The notes under the pieces: model-generated
Told to the model about the DNA's origin: nothing
The model's input: the letters and a program-made list of their open reading frames with translations, nothing else
The model's database searches: none
Shown here: positions 6,676-47,088 of the stretch, in pieces
Layout: the number at the start of each line of letters is the position of its first letter
Numbering within the stretch: the first letter of the stretch is position 1
Assembly: GCF_041886205.1 (NCBI RefSeq)
Contig: NZ_CP169029.1
From: Escherichia coli
Lineage (GTDB): Bacteria; Pseudomonadota; Gammaproteobacteria; Enterobacterales; Enterobacteriaceae
DNA length: 64,000 nucleotides
Strand: one strand, 5' to 3'
Position numbers and translations under genes: made by a program

Positions 6676-6841
6676 TGTTTAATCCTTTTGGTTTAAACCA
6701 GATGAAGCATCTTACGCTTACGCCAAAAAAGAAAGCAATTAACGGCGTATGACTTTGCAGATAATTGTGACAAAGCTCTCTATTGACGTAATCCCAGACT
6801 TATAAGGGAGATACTCGCATTGGTGTGCGCTCACGACAGGT

Positions 6842-6874
6842 AAAAAAAAACCTGCCAGCGATGGCAGGTTTTTT
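6842..6874 (-). terminator. rho-independent terminator downstream of typA (hairpin CCTGCCAGCGATGGCAGG flanked by A/T runs)
   Basis: perfect inverted repeat 6851..6868 followed by a U-run on the minus-strand transcript. Confidence 0.6.
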
Positions 6875-6891
6875 ATAACTAAAAAACGAAA

Positions 6892-8715
6892 TTAATCGTC
6901 TTTCGGTGCGCGGTTGGCGCGACGACGATCGTTTTCAGTCAGGTGACGTTTACGAATACGGATAGAGGTCGGAGTCACTTCTACCAGTTCGTCATCATCG
7001 ATGAACTCCAGAGCTTGTTCCAGAGTCATGCGGATAGGCGGAACCAGAACAACGGCTTCGTCAGTACCGGAAGCACGCATGTTGGTCAGTTTCTTACCAG
7101 TCAGGCAGTTTACCGTCAGGTCGTTAGAGCGGCTGTGAATACCGATAATCTGACCTTCGTAAACTTCTGCACCGTGACCGAGGAACAGCTTACCGCGATC
7201 CTGCAGACCGAACAGCGCGAACGCGACCGCTTTACCCTGACCGTTAGAGATCAGTACGCCGTTCTGACGCTGACCCACTTCACCCGGACGTACGTCGTCG
7301 TAGTGGCTGAAGGTGGAGTACAGCAGACCAGTACCGGAAGTCATGGTCATGAACTCAGAACGGAAGCCAATCAGACCACGGCTTGGGATCACGTAGTCGA
7401 GACGTACGCGGCCTTTACCGTCTGGATTCATGTTTTTCAGGTCGCCTTTACGTTCGCCCAGCGCCTGCATTACAGAACCCTGATGCTGTTCTTCAACGTC
7501 CAGAGTCACGTTTTCATACGGCTCTTGTTTACGACCGTCGATTTCACGGAAGATAACTTTCGGACGGGATACCGCCAGTTCGAAACCTTCACGACGCATG
7601 TTTTCGATCAGAACAGACAGGTGTAGTTCGCCACGACCAGAAACGCGGAACGCATCAGCGTCTTCGGTTTCTTCTACGCGCAGCGCAACGTTGTGTACCA
7701 GTTCTTTGTTCAGACGATCCAGGATCTGACGAGACGTTACGAACTTACCTTCTTTACCGCAGAACGGCGAGGTGTTAACGCAGAAGAACATAGAAACGGT
7801 CGGCTCATCAACGGAGAGTGCCGGCAGCGCTTCAACGTTTTGCGTGTCGCAAACGGTGTCAGAAATGTTCAGTTCGCCCAGGCCCGTGATCGCCACGATA
7901 TCGCCAGCTTCCGCCAGATCGGTTTCGATACGTTCCAGACCGAGGTGGCCCAGCACTTTACCGACTTTCGCGTTACGGGTTTTGCCTTCGCTATCGATGA
8001 TAGTGACCTGCTGGTTCGGCTTCACTTTACCGCGCTTGATGCGGCCAATGCCGATAACGCCAACATAGCTGTTGTAATCGAGCTGAGAAATCTGCATCTG
8101 GAACGGACCGTCAAGGTCAACGTCCGGCGCAGGAACGTGATCAACAATCGCCTGATACAGCGGGGTCATGTCTTCCGCCATATCTTCGTGGTCCAGACCC
8201 GCGATACCGTTCAGCGCAGAAGCGTAAACGATCGGGAAGTCCAGCTGCTCGTCGGTCGCGTCGAGGTTAACGAACAGATCGAATACCTGATCCACAACCC
8301 AATCAGGACGCGCGCCAGGGCGGTCAACTTTGTTGATAACAACAATCGGCTTCAGGCCGTAAGCAAACGCTTTTTTGGTTACGAAGCGCGTTTGCGGCAT
8401 CGGGCCGTCAAATGCGTCAACCACCAGCAGCACTGAGTCTACCATGGACATTACACGTTCAACTTCACCACCGAAGTCGGCGTGCCCCGGGGTATCAACG
8501 ATGTTGATACGGTAATCATTCCATTTGATAGCGGTGTTTTTCGCGAGGATGGTAATCCCACGCTCTTTCTCCAAATCGTTGGAGTCCATCACGCGCTCTT
8601 GGGTTTCGGCACGAGAGTCGAACGTACCGGATTGTTGGAGCAGCTTGTCTACCAGGGTGGTTTTACCATGGTCTACGTGCGCGATGATGGCGATATTACG
8701 CAATTTTTCGATCAC
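6892..8715 (-). CDS. typA: ribosome-associated translational GTPase BipA/TypA
   Basis: 607-aa ORF with GTPase motifs ([18 protein letters not shown]); divergent from glnA. Confidence 0.95.
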
Positions 8716-8866
8716 AACTTTGCCTCAGGCATTAGAAATAGCGCGTTATTGTACACGGATTAATCGCACTACAAAACAGGATCACAAACATCCTCCGCAA
8801 ACAAGTATTGCAGAGTCCCTTTGTGATCGCTTTCACGGAGCATAAAAAGGGTTATCCAAAGGTCAT

Positions 8867-8947
8867 TGCACCAATATGGTGCTTAATGTTTCCATTGAAG
8901 CACTATATTGGTGCAACATTCACATCATGGTGCAGCCCTTTTGCACG
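8867..8947 (+). promoter_or_regulatory. NtrC (GlnG) enhancer sites upstream of glnA (TGCACCAatatGGTGCt, GCACtatatTGGTGCA and a third partial site)
   Basis: matches to the TGCACCA-N3-TGGTGCA dyad at about 8867..8883, 8900..8916 and 8929..8947. Confidence 0.75.
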
Positions 8948-13378: not shown

Positions 13379-13480
<102 letters not shown>

Positions 13481-15634: not shown

Positions 15635-15702
15635 AATGGTTCGTCTTTTAGCCGTTTTATTCAGTATAGATTTGCGGCGGAATCTAACAGAAAGCAAGCA
15701 AA

Positions 15703-15945
15703 GAAAAAAGGCGACAGATTACTCTGTCGCCTTTTTTCCTGACTCATAACCCTTAACGGGTCTTACAATCCTTGCAGGCCGCCAACACACCCTGTTTTTC
15801 CTTTAGCCGGAACAATCCGTGTTGATTCCATTTCCGTTTAATTACGTCTCCGGACGTTTGTCTTCCTGACAATCCTCTGTCTTCGCCTCCTGGCGCTCCT
15901 GACCCTCATCCTGAGTCATTGTTCCTGTTAGCGTCCTCGCTCTAT
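15703..15945 (-). ncRNA. csrC: CsrC small RNA (CsrA-sequestering)
   Basis: reverse complement matches CsrC from ATAGAGCGAGGACGC.. to the terminator GGCGACAGAGTAATCTGTCGCCTTTTTT; multiple GGA motifs; between yihI and engB. Confidence 0.85.
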
Positions 15946-16215: not shown

Positions 16216-16848
16216 TTGACTAATTTGAATTATCAACAGACGCATTTTGTGATGAGTGCGCCTGATATTCGCCACCTACCTTCCGATACCGGAATTGAAG
16301 TGGCTTTTGCAGGCCGTTCCAACGCAGGTAAATCCAGTGCGCTGAACACGCTGACTAACCAGAAAAGCCTGGCTCGTACCTCAAAAACCCCAGGGCGCAC
16401 CCAGCTTATCAACCTGTTTGAAGTGGCTGACGGCAAGCGTCTGGTTGACTTGCCTGGGTACGGTTATGCGGAAGTCCCGGAAGAGATGAAGCGCAAATGG
16501 CAGCGTGCGCTCGGCGAATACCTCGAAAAACGTCAGAGCCTGCAAGGTCTGGTGGTGCTAATGGATATTCGCCATCCGCTGAAAGATTTGGATCAGCAGA
16601 TGATTGAGTGGGCGGTAGACAGCAATATCGCCGTTCTGGTGCTGCTGACCAAAGCGGACAAACTGGCAAGCGGCGCACGTAAAGCGCAATTGAATATGGT
16701 GCGTGAAGCTGTACTGGCGTTTAACGGTGATGTGCAGGTTGAAACGTTTTCTTCGTTGAAGAAACAAGGCGTGGACAAGCTGCGGCAGAAACTGGATACC
16801 TGGTTTAGCGAGATGCAGCCTGTAGAAGAAACGCAGGACGGCGAATAA
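16216..16848 (+). CDS. engB: ribosome-biogenesis GTPase EngB/YihA
   Basis: 210-aa ORF with apparent TTG start; G1 motif GRSNAGKSS. Confidence 0.9.
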
Positions 16849-16869
16849 TTTTCTTGCCTTAATGCTTGT

Positions 16870-16950
16870 GCCGGATGTGGCGTATCCGGCCCGTAAATTC
16901 AATAGATTACAATTCTACCGTTGGCCTGATAAACATAGCGCATCAGGCAT
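16870..16950. repeat. REP-like palindromic units downstream of engB
   Basis: GCCGGATGTGGCGTATCCGGC and GCCTGATAAACATAGCGCATCAGGC imperfect palindromes. Confidence 0.5.
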
Positions 16951-16973
16951 TACGGATCTTTTCTTTCGCCCAA

Positions 16974-17082
16974 TAAAAAACGCCCCAGTCATTACTGACT
17001 GGGGCGGCTAAAATATTCAGCCAAATCCGATTACGTGAAGTAAAAGGTCTGAAAGATAGAACATCTTACCTCTGTACCCTAC
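16974..17082 (-). ncRNA. spf: Spot 42 small RNA
   Basis: reverse complement matches Spot 42 (GTAGGGTACAGAGGTAAGATGTTC...) through the terminator CCGCCCCAGTCAGTAATGACTGGGGCGTTTTTTA. Confidence 0.9.
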
Positions 17083-17229
17083 GCGACTAACTTTACTCTT
17101 TTTTGTTCAGTTCAGAAAGCACTTTTTGTAATTTTTTTTCAGTTGTTGCATAGGAATTTCTAATAGCCATCACAAAACGTGACAGCTTATGTTGCTTACT
17201 TACGAAAAAAGGGCATGTTCAGGCGAATC

Positions 17230-20016
17230 TTAGTGCGCCTGATCCCAGTTTTCGCCACTCCCCACTTCCACCAGCAACGGCACATCCAGACGGGTACAGT
17301 TTTCCATCAGTTGATGAATCTGCTTCGCGACGGCATCAACATCATCTTTATGAACTTCAAATACCAGTTCATCGTGTACCTGCATGATCATACGTACACG
17401 CGGTTGCTCAGCCTGTAACCACGCATCAACGGCAATCATCGCCCGTTTGATAATGTCGGCGGCGGTTCCCTGCATTGGCGCGTTAATGGCTGCACGTTCA
17501 GCCGCTGCACGACGAGCACCATTGCTGGATTTGATATCCGGCAGATACAGACGGCGTCCGTCCAGCGTTTCAACGTAGCCCTGCTCTTTCGCCTGAGCAC
17601 GGGTGCGTTCCATATACTCCAGCACGCCAGGGTAGCGTTCGAAGTAAAGGTCCATGTACTTCTGCGCTTCTTTACGTGGAATGTTCAATTGCCGCGCCAG
17701 ACCGAAAGCACTCATGCCATAAATCAGACCAAAGTTGATCGCTTTCGCGCTACGGCGTTGCTCGCTGGTGACGGTTTCCAGTGGCAAACCAAACACTTCT
17801 GCCGCCGTTGCCCGGTGGATATCTTTTCCTTCCGCGAATGCGGTCAGCAAGCCTTTGTCACGCGAAAGATGCGCCATAATGCGCAGTTCAATCTGCGAGT
17901 AGTCCGCTGAGACAATCACATAATCCTCTGGCGCAATAAACGCCTGGCGGATACGACGACCTTCTTCGTTACGCACCGGAATGTTTTGCAGGTTAGGATC
18001 GGTTGACGATAAACGTCCCGTTGCAGTTACTGCCTGGTGATAAGAGGTATGCACACGCCCGGTTTTCGGGTTGATCATCAGCGGCAGCTTGTCGGTGTAG
18101 GTCGATTTCAGCTTCGCCAGACCACGATACTCCAGAATCACTTTTGGCAACGGATAGTCCAGCGCCAGTTCTTCCAGTACCTCTTCCGACGTTGACGGCG
18201 CGCCACCCGGCGTTTTCTTCAGCGGTTTAATGCCCTGTTTTTCAAAGAGAATGGTTTGTAACTGCTTGGTGGAAGAAAGGTTAAATTCCTCACCTGCAAT
18301 TTCATGCGCTTTCTTTTCCAGCTCAGCCAGACGAAGGGTGAGCTCTTCAGAATGATTGTGCAGCACTTTCGGATCGATCTTCACACCGTTACGTTCAATG
18401 CGTGAAAGCACCGGCACCAGCGGCATTTCGATATTCTCGAAGACGTTCAACGGCCCTTTGTGTTTTTGCAGATCCGGCCACATTTTCAGATGCAACTGCA
18501 AGGTGACATCTGCATCTTCGGCGGCGTAACGTCCGGCTTCTTCGAGGGCAATCTGGTTAAAGGTCAGTTGATTTTTGCCTTTACCAGCAATCTCTTCAAA
18601 AGTGATGGTTTTGTGCTTCAACCAACGTTCCGCGAGGCTGTCCATATCGTGACGCCCGGCAACGCTATTGAGAATGTAGGACTCCAGCATGGTATCAAAC
18701 GCAATCCCACGCAGTTCAATGCCGTAGTTCGCCAGAATACCGCGATCGTATTTCAGGTTTTGCCCGACCTTCAGCGCCTTTTCATCTTCCAGCAGCGGTT
18801 TTAGCAACTCGAGTGCACGCTCGCGAGAGATTTGATCGGGCGCATCAAGATAATCATGAGCAACCGGAATATATGCCGCTACGCCTGGCTCGATAGCAAA
18901 AGAAAGCCCGACCAGGTTAGCAGAGATGTTATCAAGGCTGTCGGTTTCGGTATCAAATGCAAATACCGGCGCTTTTTCCAGCTTCGCAATCCACGCTTTC
19001 AGTGTTTCTTCATCAAGGATGGTGACGTAGTTGTCATAAGAAATCACCGTTGCCGTCACTTCTGGCGCTTCGTCTGCAACACTGGTTTCCTGCGGTCTGG
19101 CTGCGGGTTTCGCCCCTTTAGCCTGTAACCATTTGCCCGCTTCGACATCAGCAGTCCAGCGTTTGAACTCATACTTTTTGAACAGCCCCAACAACTCTTC
19201 CGCCGCCGGTTGCTGCACTTCCAGTTGTTCACAGGTCAGCTCCAGTTCAACGTCGGTTTTAATCGTCGCCAGCTGGTATGAGAGATAAGCAACTTCTTTG
19301 TTTTGCTCGAGCTTCGCTGCCATTGTTTTCGCGCCACGGAAGCTCAACCCAGCAATTTTTTCTGGCTCGGCATACAGCGTATCCAGTCCGCCAAGACCTT
19401 GCAGCAATGCCTGCGCGGTTTTTTCACCGACGCCCGGTACGCCAGGGATGTTATCGGAGGAGTCACCCATCAGCGCCAGGAAATCGATGATCAGTTCTGG
19501 CGGCACGCCGTACTTATTCACCACCTCTTCCGGTCCAAGGATGGTATTCGTCATGGTATTGATAAGCGTAATATTTGGCGTCACCAGCTGCGCCATATCT
19601 TTATCGCCAGTGCTGATCAGCACCGGATGCCCGGCTTTTTCGGCTTCGCGCGCCAGAGTACCGATAACGTCGTCCGCTTCTACGCTAGAAACCGCCAGCA
19701 GCGGCAGCCCCATCGCTTTAACCATCGCGTGCAAAGGTTCGATTTGTGCTCGCAGATCGTCCGGCATTGGCGGGCGATGTGATTTGTAATGTTCAAACAG
19801 TTCATCACGAAAGGTTTTTCCCTTGGCGTCAAAGACCACCGCTGCATGCGTCGGTTTATATTGCATGATCAGACTGCGCAGCATGTTGAGGACACCATAC
19901 ATCGCACCGGTCGGCTCGCCTGCGCTGTTAGTCAGCGGAGGAAACGCGTGATATGCGCGATAAAGATAAGATGAACCATCTACAAGGATAAGTGGATTTT
20001 GGGGGATCTGAACCAT
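17230..20016 (-). CDS. polA: DNA polymerase I
   Basis: 928-aa ORF, recognised PolA sequence. Confidence 0.97.
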
Positions 20017-26177: not shown

Positions 26178-26297
26178 ATGCCTGGCAGTTCCCTACTCTC
26201 GCATGGGGAGACCCCACACTACCATCGGCGCTACGGCGTTTCACTTCTGAGTTCGGCATGGGGTCAGGTGGGACCACCGCGCTACGGCCGCCAGGCA
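26178..26297 (-). rRNA. rrfA: 5S ribosomal RNA
   Basis: 120-nt match to E. coli 5S rRNA (reverse complement ATGCCTGGCAGTTCCCTACTCTCGCATGGGG...). Confidence 0.97.
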
Positions 26298-26389
26298 AAT
26301 TCTTTTTTATCAGACCGCTTCTGCGTTCTGATTTAATCTGTATCAGGCTGAAAATCTTCTCTCATCCGCCAAAACACCTTCGGCGTTGT

Positions 26390-29292
<2,903 letters not shown>

Positions 29293-29475
29293 TCACAACC
29301 CGAAGATGTTTCTTTCGATTCATCATCGTGTTGCGAAAATTTGAGAGACTCACGAACAACTTTCGTTGTTCAGTGTTTCAATTTTCAGCTTGATCCAGAT
29401 TTTTAAAGAGCAAAACTTCGCAGTGAACCTTTGCAGGTACACTCTGAAGTATTTTTTATTTAATCACTACAGAGA

Positions 29476-29551
29476 TGGTGGAGCTATGCGGGATCGAACC
29501 GCAGACCTCCTGCGTGCAAAGCAGGCGCTCTCCCAGCTGAGCTATAGCCCC
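29476..29551 (-). tRNA. alaT: tRNA-Ala (UGC)
   Basis: 76-nt match to GGGGCTATAGCTCAGCTGGGAGAGCGCCTGCTTTGCACGCAGGAGGTCTGCGGTTCGATCCCGCATAGCTCCACCA. Confidence 0.97.
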
Positions 29552-29593
29552 ATAACATGTAGTTAAAACCTCTTCAAATTTGCGGTGCAAATT

Positions 29594-29670
<77 letters not shown>

Positions 29671-29738
29671 GTAGAGGTTTTACTGCTCATTTTCATCAGA
29701 CAATCTGTGTGAGCACTGCAAAGTACGCTTCTTTAAGG

Positions 29739-31280
<1,542 letters not shown>

Positions 31281-39208: not shown

Positions 39209-39392
<184 letters not shown>

Positions 39393-44845: not shown

Positions 44846-47088
<2,243 letters not shown>

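What the first reader, a model, noticed from the sequence alone, without database searches (positions are those of the whole stretch)
16974..17082. Spot 42 (spf) sRNA between engB and polA
A 109-nt minus-strand sequence with the Spot 42 5' end (GUAGGGUACAGAGGUAAGAUGUUC) and a terminal hairpin plus U-run. It sits 147 bp downstream of polA, matching the known polA-spf arrangement.
Basis: partly seen in the sequence, partly recalled or inferred. Interest (0 to 1): 0.25.

Follow-up and report, generated by a model that had tools for sequence, protein, structure and literature searches.

The report
Spot 42 small RNA gene (spf)

Summary
The observation and the interpretation are both correct. Window 16974-17082 (minus strand) matches the full Rfam Spot_42 model (RF00021) at 122.8 bits against a gathering score of 80 (E = 3.6e-24). 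The 109 nt are 100% identical, as a single copy, in 5424 of 5426 complete E. coli genomes, including K-12 MG1655, where the site is annotated spf (b3864). polA ends exactly 147 nt upstream on the same strand. yihA (engB) converges 125 nt downstream. The RNA folds into three hairpins, the last a terminator followed by a U run (-40.6 kcal/mol, z = -5.1). In 93 distinct homologues from Enterobacterales, Vibrionales and Aeromonadales, the two 3' hairpins show compensatory changes at 10 pairs, and nt 1-40 are invariant. The published CRP operator TTTTGTGATGGCTATTAGAAAT is present unchanged, centred at -84.5. Spot 42 is therefore a dual-function RNA. Nothing here departs from the known gene, so it is already known and of low interest.

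The parts
16974..17082 (-). spf gene: the 109-nt Spot 42 RNA (+1 = 17082; 3' end in the U run, 16974 classical or 16972 in the RefSeq K-12 annotation)
   Evidence: Rfam RF00021 at 122.8 bits against GA 80, full model. 100% identical in 5424 of 5426 complete E. coli genomes. Annotated spf b3864 in K-12. No mismatch to K-12.
17017..17064 (-). spfP ORF inside the RNA (AUG at RNA nt 19-21, UGA at nt 64-66): the 15-aa protein SpfP, MFYLSDLLLHVIGFG
   Evidence: Translation. Annotated as CDS spfP b4837 in K-12 and as a CDS in strain SK1144. Translation and CRP binding were shown in PMC8916003. The 15-codon frame is intact in 111 of 118 homologues.
17069..17072 (-). Shine-Dalgarno-like GAGG (RNA nt 11-14), 4 nt before the AUG; buried in the 5' hairpin
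   Evidence: Read from the sequence. It is paired in the MFE structure. PMC8916003 describes an SD and start codon that may be sequestered by the stem-loop.
17035..17082 (-). 5' hairpin (RNA nt 1-48), which carries the first two published base-pairing regions in its unpaired or weakly paired parts; nt 1-40 are invariant across species
   Evidence: MFE structure. Helices 1 and 2 are 99.8-100% paired, with only G-C/G-U and U-A/U-G changes. Nt 1-12 and 38-40 lie outside the search pattern and are invariant in all 94 aligned sequences.
17023..17034 (-). Single-stranded linker (RNA nt 49-60, GUAAUCGGAUUU): the third base-pairing region. It includes the single GGA (nt 55-57, window 17026-17028) reported as the CsrA site
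   Evidence: Unpaired in both the MFE and the centroid structure. Three single-stranded pairing regions and CsrA binding at the single GGA are described in PMC12612679 and PMC8916003.
17006..17022 (-). Middle hairpin (RNA nt 61-77, GGCUGAAUAUUUUAGCC)
   Evidence: MFE structure. Helix 3 is 95.2% paired, and 2 pairs have compensatory changes (G-C to A-U in 11 sequences).
16975..17005 (-). Rho-independent terminator: a 10-bp G+C-rich hairpin (RNA nt 78-101) followed by a run of six U (window 16975-16980). This is the usual Hfq-binding 3' module of enterobacterial sRNAs
   Evidence: Terminator scan. Helix 4 is 98.6% paired, and 8 of its 10 pairs have compensatory changes. Its role as an Hfq site comes from the literature (PMC8916003 Fig. 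1B legend) and was not tested here.
17090..17095 (-). Candidate -10 hexamer TAAAGT (-13 to -8)
   Evidence: Read from the sequence. Five of its 6 bases are at least 70% conserved across 115 distinct upstream regions. The generic sigma-70 scan found no full promoter because the -35 is weak. This assignment is inferred.
17115..17141 (-). Conserved A-rich block, -59 to -33 (TGAAAAAAAATTACAAAAAGTGCTTTC): possibly an UP element plus a weak -35
   Evidence: Phylogenetic footprint: most positions are 80-99% conserved across Enterobacterales, Vibrionales and Aeromonadales. The function is inferred and was not tested.
17156..17177 (-). cAMP-CRP operator TTTTGTGATGGCTATTAGAAAT, centred at -84.5
   Evidence: It is the best TGTGA-N6-TCACA-like site in the spacer, with 2 mismatches of 10. 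The 22-mer is identical to the E. coli spf CRP site quoted in PMC3295665 from Polayes et al. 1988. It is identical in K-12.
17230..20016 (-). polA (DNA polymerase I), the upstream neighbour on the same strand
   Evidence: ORF list. NCBIfam NF004397 at 1251.8 bits. K-12 annotation.
16216..16848 (+). yihA (engB), a ribosome-biogenesis GTPase, the convergent downstream neighbour
   Evidence: ORF list. TIGR03598 at 252.2 bits. K-12 annotation.

Best explanation
The locus is the canonical E. coli spf gene. It has its own promoter, 147 nt downstream of polA, and gives a 109-nt transcript that ends at an intrinsic terminator. [quoted passage not shown] The RNA works in two ways. (1) As an Hfq-dependent base-pairing sRNA, it uses three exposed stretches (the 5' end, the loop region of the 5' hairpin, and the nt 49-60 linker) to pair with mRNAs for uptake and catabolism of non-preferred carbon sources and lower their expression. 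Known targets include galK, gltA, srlA, fucI, nanT and sthA. With CRP this forms a multi-output feedforward loop that sharpens catabolite repression. (2) As a very short mRNA, nt 19-66 encode the 15-aa SpfP, which binds CRP and blocks activation of operons such as galETKM and mal. This reinforces the same loop, and more so at high temperature, when the hairpin covering the SD and AUG opens. Shown here: identity of sequence, structure, ORF, operator and gene context with the characterised gene, plus structural covariation in homologues. Taken from the literature and not tested here: expression, CRP repression, Hfq and CsrA binding, target pairing and SpfP activity.
For: Rfam Spot_42 at 122.8 bits against GA 80, E = 3.6e-24, full-length model. 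109/109 identity to spf in 5424 of 5426 complete E. coli genomes, one copy each. K-12 annotation of spf (b3864) and spfP (b4837) between polA and yihA. The 400-bp alignment to K-12 differs by one inserted C outside the gene. Three-hairpin fold at -40.6 kcal/mol, z = -5.08. Terminator. Covariation on 93 distinct homologues: 98.7% of cells paired, 10 pairs with compensatory changes, 0 of 500 shuffles reaching this, and slid controls at 39-51% paired. SpfP translation MFYLSDLLLHVIGFG. The 15-codon frame with His10 is kept in 111 of 118 species. polA upstream on the same strand and yihA convergent downstream in 94 of 118 loci. Exact match to the published CRP operator. Mechanism: PMC8916003, PMC12612679, PMC3295665.
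Against: Nothing in the sequence argues against it. There are three caveats. No expression data exist for this particular strain. The generic sigma-70 scan finds no consensus promoter, so the -10 and -35 assignments rest on position and conservation. How CRP represses from -84.5 is not explained by anything examined here.
Confidence: 0.98

Rival explanations
1. A purely non-coding sRNA. On this reading the 15-codon ORF is an accident of the sequence constraints on the pairing regions and makes no functional peptide.
For: The ORF overlaps the pairing regions, and nt 1-40 are invariant at the RNA level, so ORF conservation cannot be separated from RNA conservation. Only 8 sites vary within the frame, 4 of them at third codon positions, and synonymous and non-synonymous codon differences are 7 each, which is too few to show protein-level selection. 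Early work concluded that Spot 42 is not an mRNA (Rice et al. 1987, cited in PMC3295665).
Against: PMC8916003 detected chromosomally tagged SpfP. It also showed that a recoded, pairing-deficient ORF still blocks growth on galactose, that a stop codon abolishes this effect, that His10 is critical, and that SpfP co-purifies with CRP. RefSeq annotates spfP. His10 lies outside my search pattern and is kept in 117 of the 118 homologues with a usable frame, including all 111 with the 15-codon frame.
Confidence: 0.02
2. Not an independent gene, but a processed 3' UTR or terminator module of the polA transcript.
For: It lies on the same strand as polA, only 147 nt downstream, and no other terminator-like site was found in the spacer, so some polA read-through into spf is plausible.
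Against: Conserved promoter-proximal blocks (-10 TAAAGT and the A-rich -59..-33 tract) lie at a fixed distance from an invariant +1. The published CRP operator is upstream. 5' RACE in Aliivibrio mapped the same 5' end (PMC3295665). In the Aeromonas loci tblastn found no polA upstream of spf, although 0.6-6.8 kb of upstream sequence was available, so the unit does not depend on polA.
Confidence: 0.01
3. A chance resemblance or a decayed copy of spf.
For: None.
Against: 109/109 identity to the functional K-12 gene. It is a single copy per genome at the syntenic site. The Rfam E-value is 3.6e-24.
Confidence: 0

Closest known systems
Spot 42 RNA / spf of Escherichia coli K-12 (b3864; Rfam RF00021), with the embedded spfP (b4837)
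   Same: Everything testable is the same: the 109-nt sequence, the three-hairpin fold, the terminator, the SpfP ORF, the CRP operator 22-mer, and the flanking polA and yihA genes with their orientation.
   Different: One extra C in the polA-spf spacer (CCC at 17212-17214 where K-12 has CC), which makes the spacer 147 nt instead of 146. It lies outside the RNA, the operator and the promoter-proximal blocks.
Other CRP-controlled dual-function RNAs of carbon metabolism (SgrS/SgrT, AzuCR/AzuC in E. coli; VcdRP in Vibrio cholerae)
   Same: Each is a small transcript that both base-pairs with mRNAs and encodes a small protein acting on the same pathway. AzuCR and VcdRP are also repressed by CRP, and in AzuCR, as in Spot 42, the ORF overlaps the pairing region (PMC8916003, PMC12612679).
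   Different: They are unrelated in sequence. SgrS keeps its ORF and pairing region apart and is activated by SgrR. The small proteins have different targets: SgrT acts on PtsG (from my own knowledge), AzuC on GlpD and VcdP on GltA, whereas SpfP targets CRP itself.

Membership tests
Spot 42 RNA (Rfam RF00021) | Score at or above the curated gathering threshold of the covariance model, over the full model length | tested here: met
   122.8 bits against GA 80, model positions 1-115 of 115, E = 3.6e-24 on the 64-kb window.
Spot 42 RNA (Rfam RF00021) | Sequence identity with the experimentally characterised E. coli K-12 spf transcript (109 nt, 5' GUAGGGUACAG...) | tested here: met
   109/109 identical to K-12 and to 5424 of 5426 complete E. 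coli genomes.
Spot 42 RNA (Rfam RF00021) | Three-hairpin architecture ending in a Rho-independent terminator, supported by covariation | tested here: met
   MFE -40.6 kcal/mol, z = -5.08. Terminator scan. Ten pairs with compensatory changes in hairpins 2 and 3, 0 of 500 shuffles as high, slid controls much lower. The 5' hairpin is invariant, so covariation says nothing for or against it.
Spot 42 RNA (Rfam RF00021) | Conserved genomic context: downstream of polA on the same strand, with yihA/engB convergent | tested here: met
   Window ORFs confirmed by NCBIfam. The order matches K-12. The same arrangement holds in 94 of 118 loci from other species and is described in PMC3295665.
Spot 42 RNA (Rfam RF00021) | cAMP-CRP operator upstream of the promoter (transcription repressed by CRP) | tested here: met
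   The published 22-mer TTTTGTGATGGCTATTAGAAAT is present at 17156-17177, centred at -84.5. Only the presence of the site was tested; repression itself was not.
Spot 42 RNA (Rfam RF00021) | Hfq-dependent base pairing with target mRNAs (galK and others) through three single-stranded regions | not testable with these tools
   The pairing regions are identical in sequence to K-12, and the nt 49-60 linker is unpaired in the predicted fold. Binding and regulation are known only from the literature (PMC8916003, PMC12612679). I did not look for known target genes in the 64-kb window.
Dual-function sRNA encoding SpfP | Intact 15-codon ORF with SD, AUG and UGA, including the critical His10 | tested here: met
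   MFYLSDLLLHVIGFG* from 17064 to 17017. It corresponds to the annotated spfP CDS in K-12, whose DNA is identical. The importance of His10 comes from PMC8916003.
Dual-function sRNA encoding SpfP | The peptide is translated and binds CRP | not testable with these tools
   Shown for E. coli K-12 in PMC8916003. Inferred here from sequence identity.

The most novel reading that the evidence does not exclude
Nothing about the window's own locus is new. The most novel reading left open comes from the cross-species comparison. Nt 1-40 of Spot 42 are identical in all 93 distinct homologues from Enterobacterales, Vibrionales and Aeromonadales, and the 15-codon frame with His10 is kept in 111 of 118 species. 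This could mean that the SpfP-CRP interaction, so far shown only in E. coli, is ancestral and functional across all three orders, and that triple overlapping constraints (peptide, seed regions, SD-masking hairpin) have frozen the sequence. With only 8 variable sites in the frame, my data cannot separate protein-level from RNA-level constraint.
Probability: 0.4. Interest if true: 0.2.

Novelty: already known. Interest (0 to 1): 0.05.

Why it matters
It matters only as a correct annotation. Spot 42 is one of the oldest and best-studied bacterial sRNAs. It forms the RNA arm of the CRP feedforward loop in catabolite repression, and since 2022 it has been a model dual-function RNA. Confirming it here places the window at the polA-spf-yihA-csrC region of an E. 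coli chromosome. It also shows that many RefSeq E. coli records leave spf without an annotated feature: 9 of the 10 listed hits had none under the match. No open question becomes more testable through this locus.

Tried and rejected
(1) The generic sigma-70 promoter scan of 16850-17260 found no promoter. The spf promoter has a weak -35, so I used position and phylogenetic footprinting instead.

(2) A permissive Rfam scan of 16800-17300 gave weak sub-threshold hits (PyrR 23.9, VrrA 21.4, NsiR1 20.9, ncS54 17.0, and a plus-strand Spot_42 hit at 17.7 bits). All of them rest on the terminator palindrome and were rejected as chance.

(3) A CRP-site search also gave 4-mismatch candidates at -62.5 and -26.5. 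I rejected them in favour of the -84.5 site, which matches the published operator exactly.

(4) I tried to read the primary papers on CRP repression (PMC211256) and on the pairing regions (PMC3072601, PMC3343335). None is held, so exact nucleotide limits of pairing regions I-III are not cited.

(5) The codon-position analysis of the SpfP frame was inconclusive: 8 variable sites, with 7 synonymous and 7 non-synonymous codon differences.

(6) The repeat finder with a minimum length of 8 missed the 7-bp REP-like palindromes downstream of spf. They were read by eye.

(7) The NCBIfam scan could not take the 15-aa peptide, which is below the minimum length.

Full report
**Observation.** The minus strand of window 17082..16974 reads GTAGGGTACAGAGGTAAGATGTTCTATCTTTCAGACCTTTTACTTCACGTAATCGGATTTGGCTGAATATTTTAGCCGCCCCAGTCAGTAATGACTGGGGCGTTTTTTA. 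The polA stop codon is at 17232-17230, so exactly 147 nt separate it from +1 at 17082.

**Family assignment.** An Rfam scan of the whole window at gathering thresholds finds Spot_42 (RF00021) at 16974-17092 on the minus strand. The score is 122.8 bits against a gathering score of 80, E = 3.6e-24, covering model positions 1-115 of 115. The alignment shows that the extra 10 nt at the 5' side are unpaired flank included in the model. Other families hit this stretch only well below threshold and only through the terminator palindrome.

**Identity with the characterised gene.** The 109 nt are 100% identical, as one copy per genome, in 5424 of 5426 complete E. coli genomes. In K-12 MG1655 the site is annotated ncRNA spf (b3864, 4049899-4050009), with the CDS spfP (b4837) inside it. 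It lies between polA (b3863, same strand) and yihA (b3865, opposite strand), with csrC next. A 400-bp alignment of window, K-12 and strain SK1144 shows no difference between window and K-12 except one extra C in the polA-spf spacer. A 6.5-kb stretch around the locus is 100% identical to two E. coli chromosomes and at least 95% identical in 5425 genomes. The flanking ORFs are confirmed as DNA polymerase I (17230-20016, minus; 1251.8 bits) and YihA/YsxC GTPase (16216-16848, plus; 252.2 bits).

**Structure.** The RNA folds into a long 5' hairpin (nt 1-48), an unpaired linker (nt 49-60), a small middle hairpin (nt 61-77) and a G+C-rich terminator hairpin (nt 78-101) followed by UUUUUU. The MFE is -40.6 kcal/mol and z = -5.08, and none of 200 shuffles folds as well. 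The terminator scan finds the same hairpin.

**Related sequences.** They came from Enterobacterales, Vibrionales and Aeromonadales, plus one Alteromonadales genome. 118 were usable, and they gave 93 distinct 112-nt sequences.
- Nt 1-12 and 38-40 were not fixed by the search pattern and are still invariant in all of them. All variation lies 3' of nt 40.
- Counting the window's MFE pairs on this alignment gives 98.7% standard pairs and 10 pairs with compensatory changes (8 of 10 in the terminator stem, 2 in the middle hairpin). No shuffle out of 500 reaches the observed values, and slid controls fall to 39-51% paired.
- The 5' hairpin changes only between G-C and G-U or between U-A and U-G, so it is constrained at the sequence level.
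- polA lies upstream on the same strand and yihA converges downstream in 94 of 118 loci. Most exceptions are loci cut short or Aeromonas loci, where polA is not the upstream neighbour.

**The embedded ORF.** Nt 19-66 (window 17064-17017) translate to MFYLSDLLLHVIGFG*, preceded by GAGG at nt 11-14.
- This is SpfP. Aoyama et al. 2022 (PMC8916003) showed that the tagged peptide is made, and more so at 42-45 °C.
- In that study a recoded, pairing-deficient ORF still blocked growth on galactose unless a stop codon was introduced.
- His10 was critical, and SpfP bound CRP and blocked activation of galETKM and mal genes.
- A 15-codon frame is intact in 111 of 118 species, and His10 is kept in 117 of the 118.
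- Only 6 distinct nt 1-66 sequences and 8 variable sites exist among those 111, so protein-level selection cannot be separated from RNA-level constraint.

**Regulation.** The best CRP-like site in the spacer is TGTGATGGCTATTAGA, centred at -84.5. The surrounding 22-mer TTTTGTGATGGCTATTAGAAAT (17177-17156) is identical to the E. coli spf CRP site quoted in PMC3295665 from Polayes et al. 1988. Footprinting of 115 distinct upstream regions shows two conserved blocks: TAAAGT at -13..-8, a plausible -10, and an A-rich tract at -59..-33, which I take to be an UP-element-like sequence plus a weak -35. The generic promoter scan finds nothing, which fits a non-consensus -35.

**Mechanism.** This part comes from the literature and is applied here by sequence identity.
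- With glucose, cAMP is low, CRP repression is lifted and Spot 42 accumulates.
- With Hfq, it pairs through three single-stranded regions with mRNAs for non-preferred carbon use (galK first, then gltA, srlA, fucI, nanT, sthA and others) and represses them. This forms a feedforward loop with CRP.
- CsrA binds the single GGA (nt 55-57) and protects the RNA from RNase E.
- SpfP adds direct inhibition of CRP (PMC8916003, PMC12612679).

**Verdict.** Observation confirmed, interpretation supported. The element is the known spf/spfP gene with no departure from K-12. Novelty: already known. Interest: low.

Noticed in passing
window 15692-15945 (-): CsrC sRNA (Rfam RF00084, 278.7 bits against GA 61), in the same position relative to yihA as csrC in K-12. 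In Salmonella, Spot 42 has been reported to raise CsrC levels (PMC7591399), so the two neighbouring sRNA genes are functionally linked.
   Followed up: partly
window 16870-16890 and 16924-16948: Two REP-like palindromes with 7-bp stems (GCCGGAT..ATCCGGC and GCCTGAT..ATCAGGC) lie between the spf terminator and the yihA stop codon. Strain SK1144 differs by two bases in the loop of the second. No repeat feature is listed there in the K-12 table.
   Followed up: partly
window 17212-17214: CCC where K-12 has CC. This is the only difference from K-12 in the 400 bp around spf, and it makes the polA-spf spacer 147 nt instead of 146. Strain SK1144 shares the CCC.
   Followed up: yes
window 26180-31280 (-): A complete rRNA operon (16S, two spacer tRNAs at 29479-29551 and 29597-29670, 23S, 5S). 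There is also a StyR-44 hit (29300-29408) in the spacer just upstream of 23S.
   Followed up: no
window 13400-13477, 39261-39338, 8797-8904, 46483-46734, 6839-6907 (all -): Other Rfam hits above gathering: two naRNA4 copies, ES222, Erse (313 bits) and STnc370. STnc370 is borderline at 54.9 bits against GA 54.
   Followed up: no
L072 12965-13048 (-), Bowmanella yangjiangensis: A truncated Spot 42-like element. Nt 1-40 are identical to E. coli, followed directly by its own G+C hairpin and T run. It lacks the nt 49-60 linker and the middle hairpin. The Rfam score is 50.6, below GA 80.
   Followed up: partly
L013, L029, L031, L032, L046, L048, L059, L070, L122 (Aeromonas and similar sequences): Aeromonas-type spf. 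tblastn found no polA upstream although 0.6-6.8 kb was available. The linker GGA (the reported CsrA site) is GAA, and SpfP ends ...HVIECG. L013 still scores 109.1 bits on the Rfam model.
   Followed up: partly
L017, L069, L091 (Vibrio breoganii, V. ezurae and a similar sequence): These variants have Tyr3 changed to His and have lost the UGA at codon 16, so the ORF runs to 24 or more codons (MFHLSDLLFHVIRI...). The middle hairpin sequence has diverged. L017 still passes Rfam at 99.2 bits.
   Followed up: no
L003 393-458 (+), Vibrio hannami: A RyhB-like hit just below gathering (50.8 against 55), about 3.4 kb upstream of spf. This fits the report that RyhB lies in the neighbouring intergenic region in Aliivibrio (PMC3295665).
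   Followed up: no
E. coli genome collection: Nine of the 10 listed RefSeq records carry no annotated feature under the 100%-identical spf sequence, and one annotates only a CDS named 'spot 42 RNA, inhibition of DNA synthesis'. Two of 5426 genomes gave no match, and two matches lie on records labelled plasmid.
   Followed up: no
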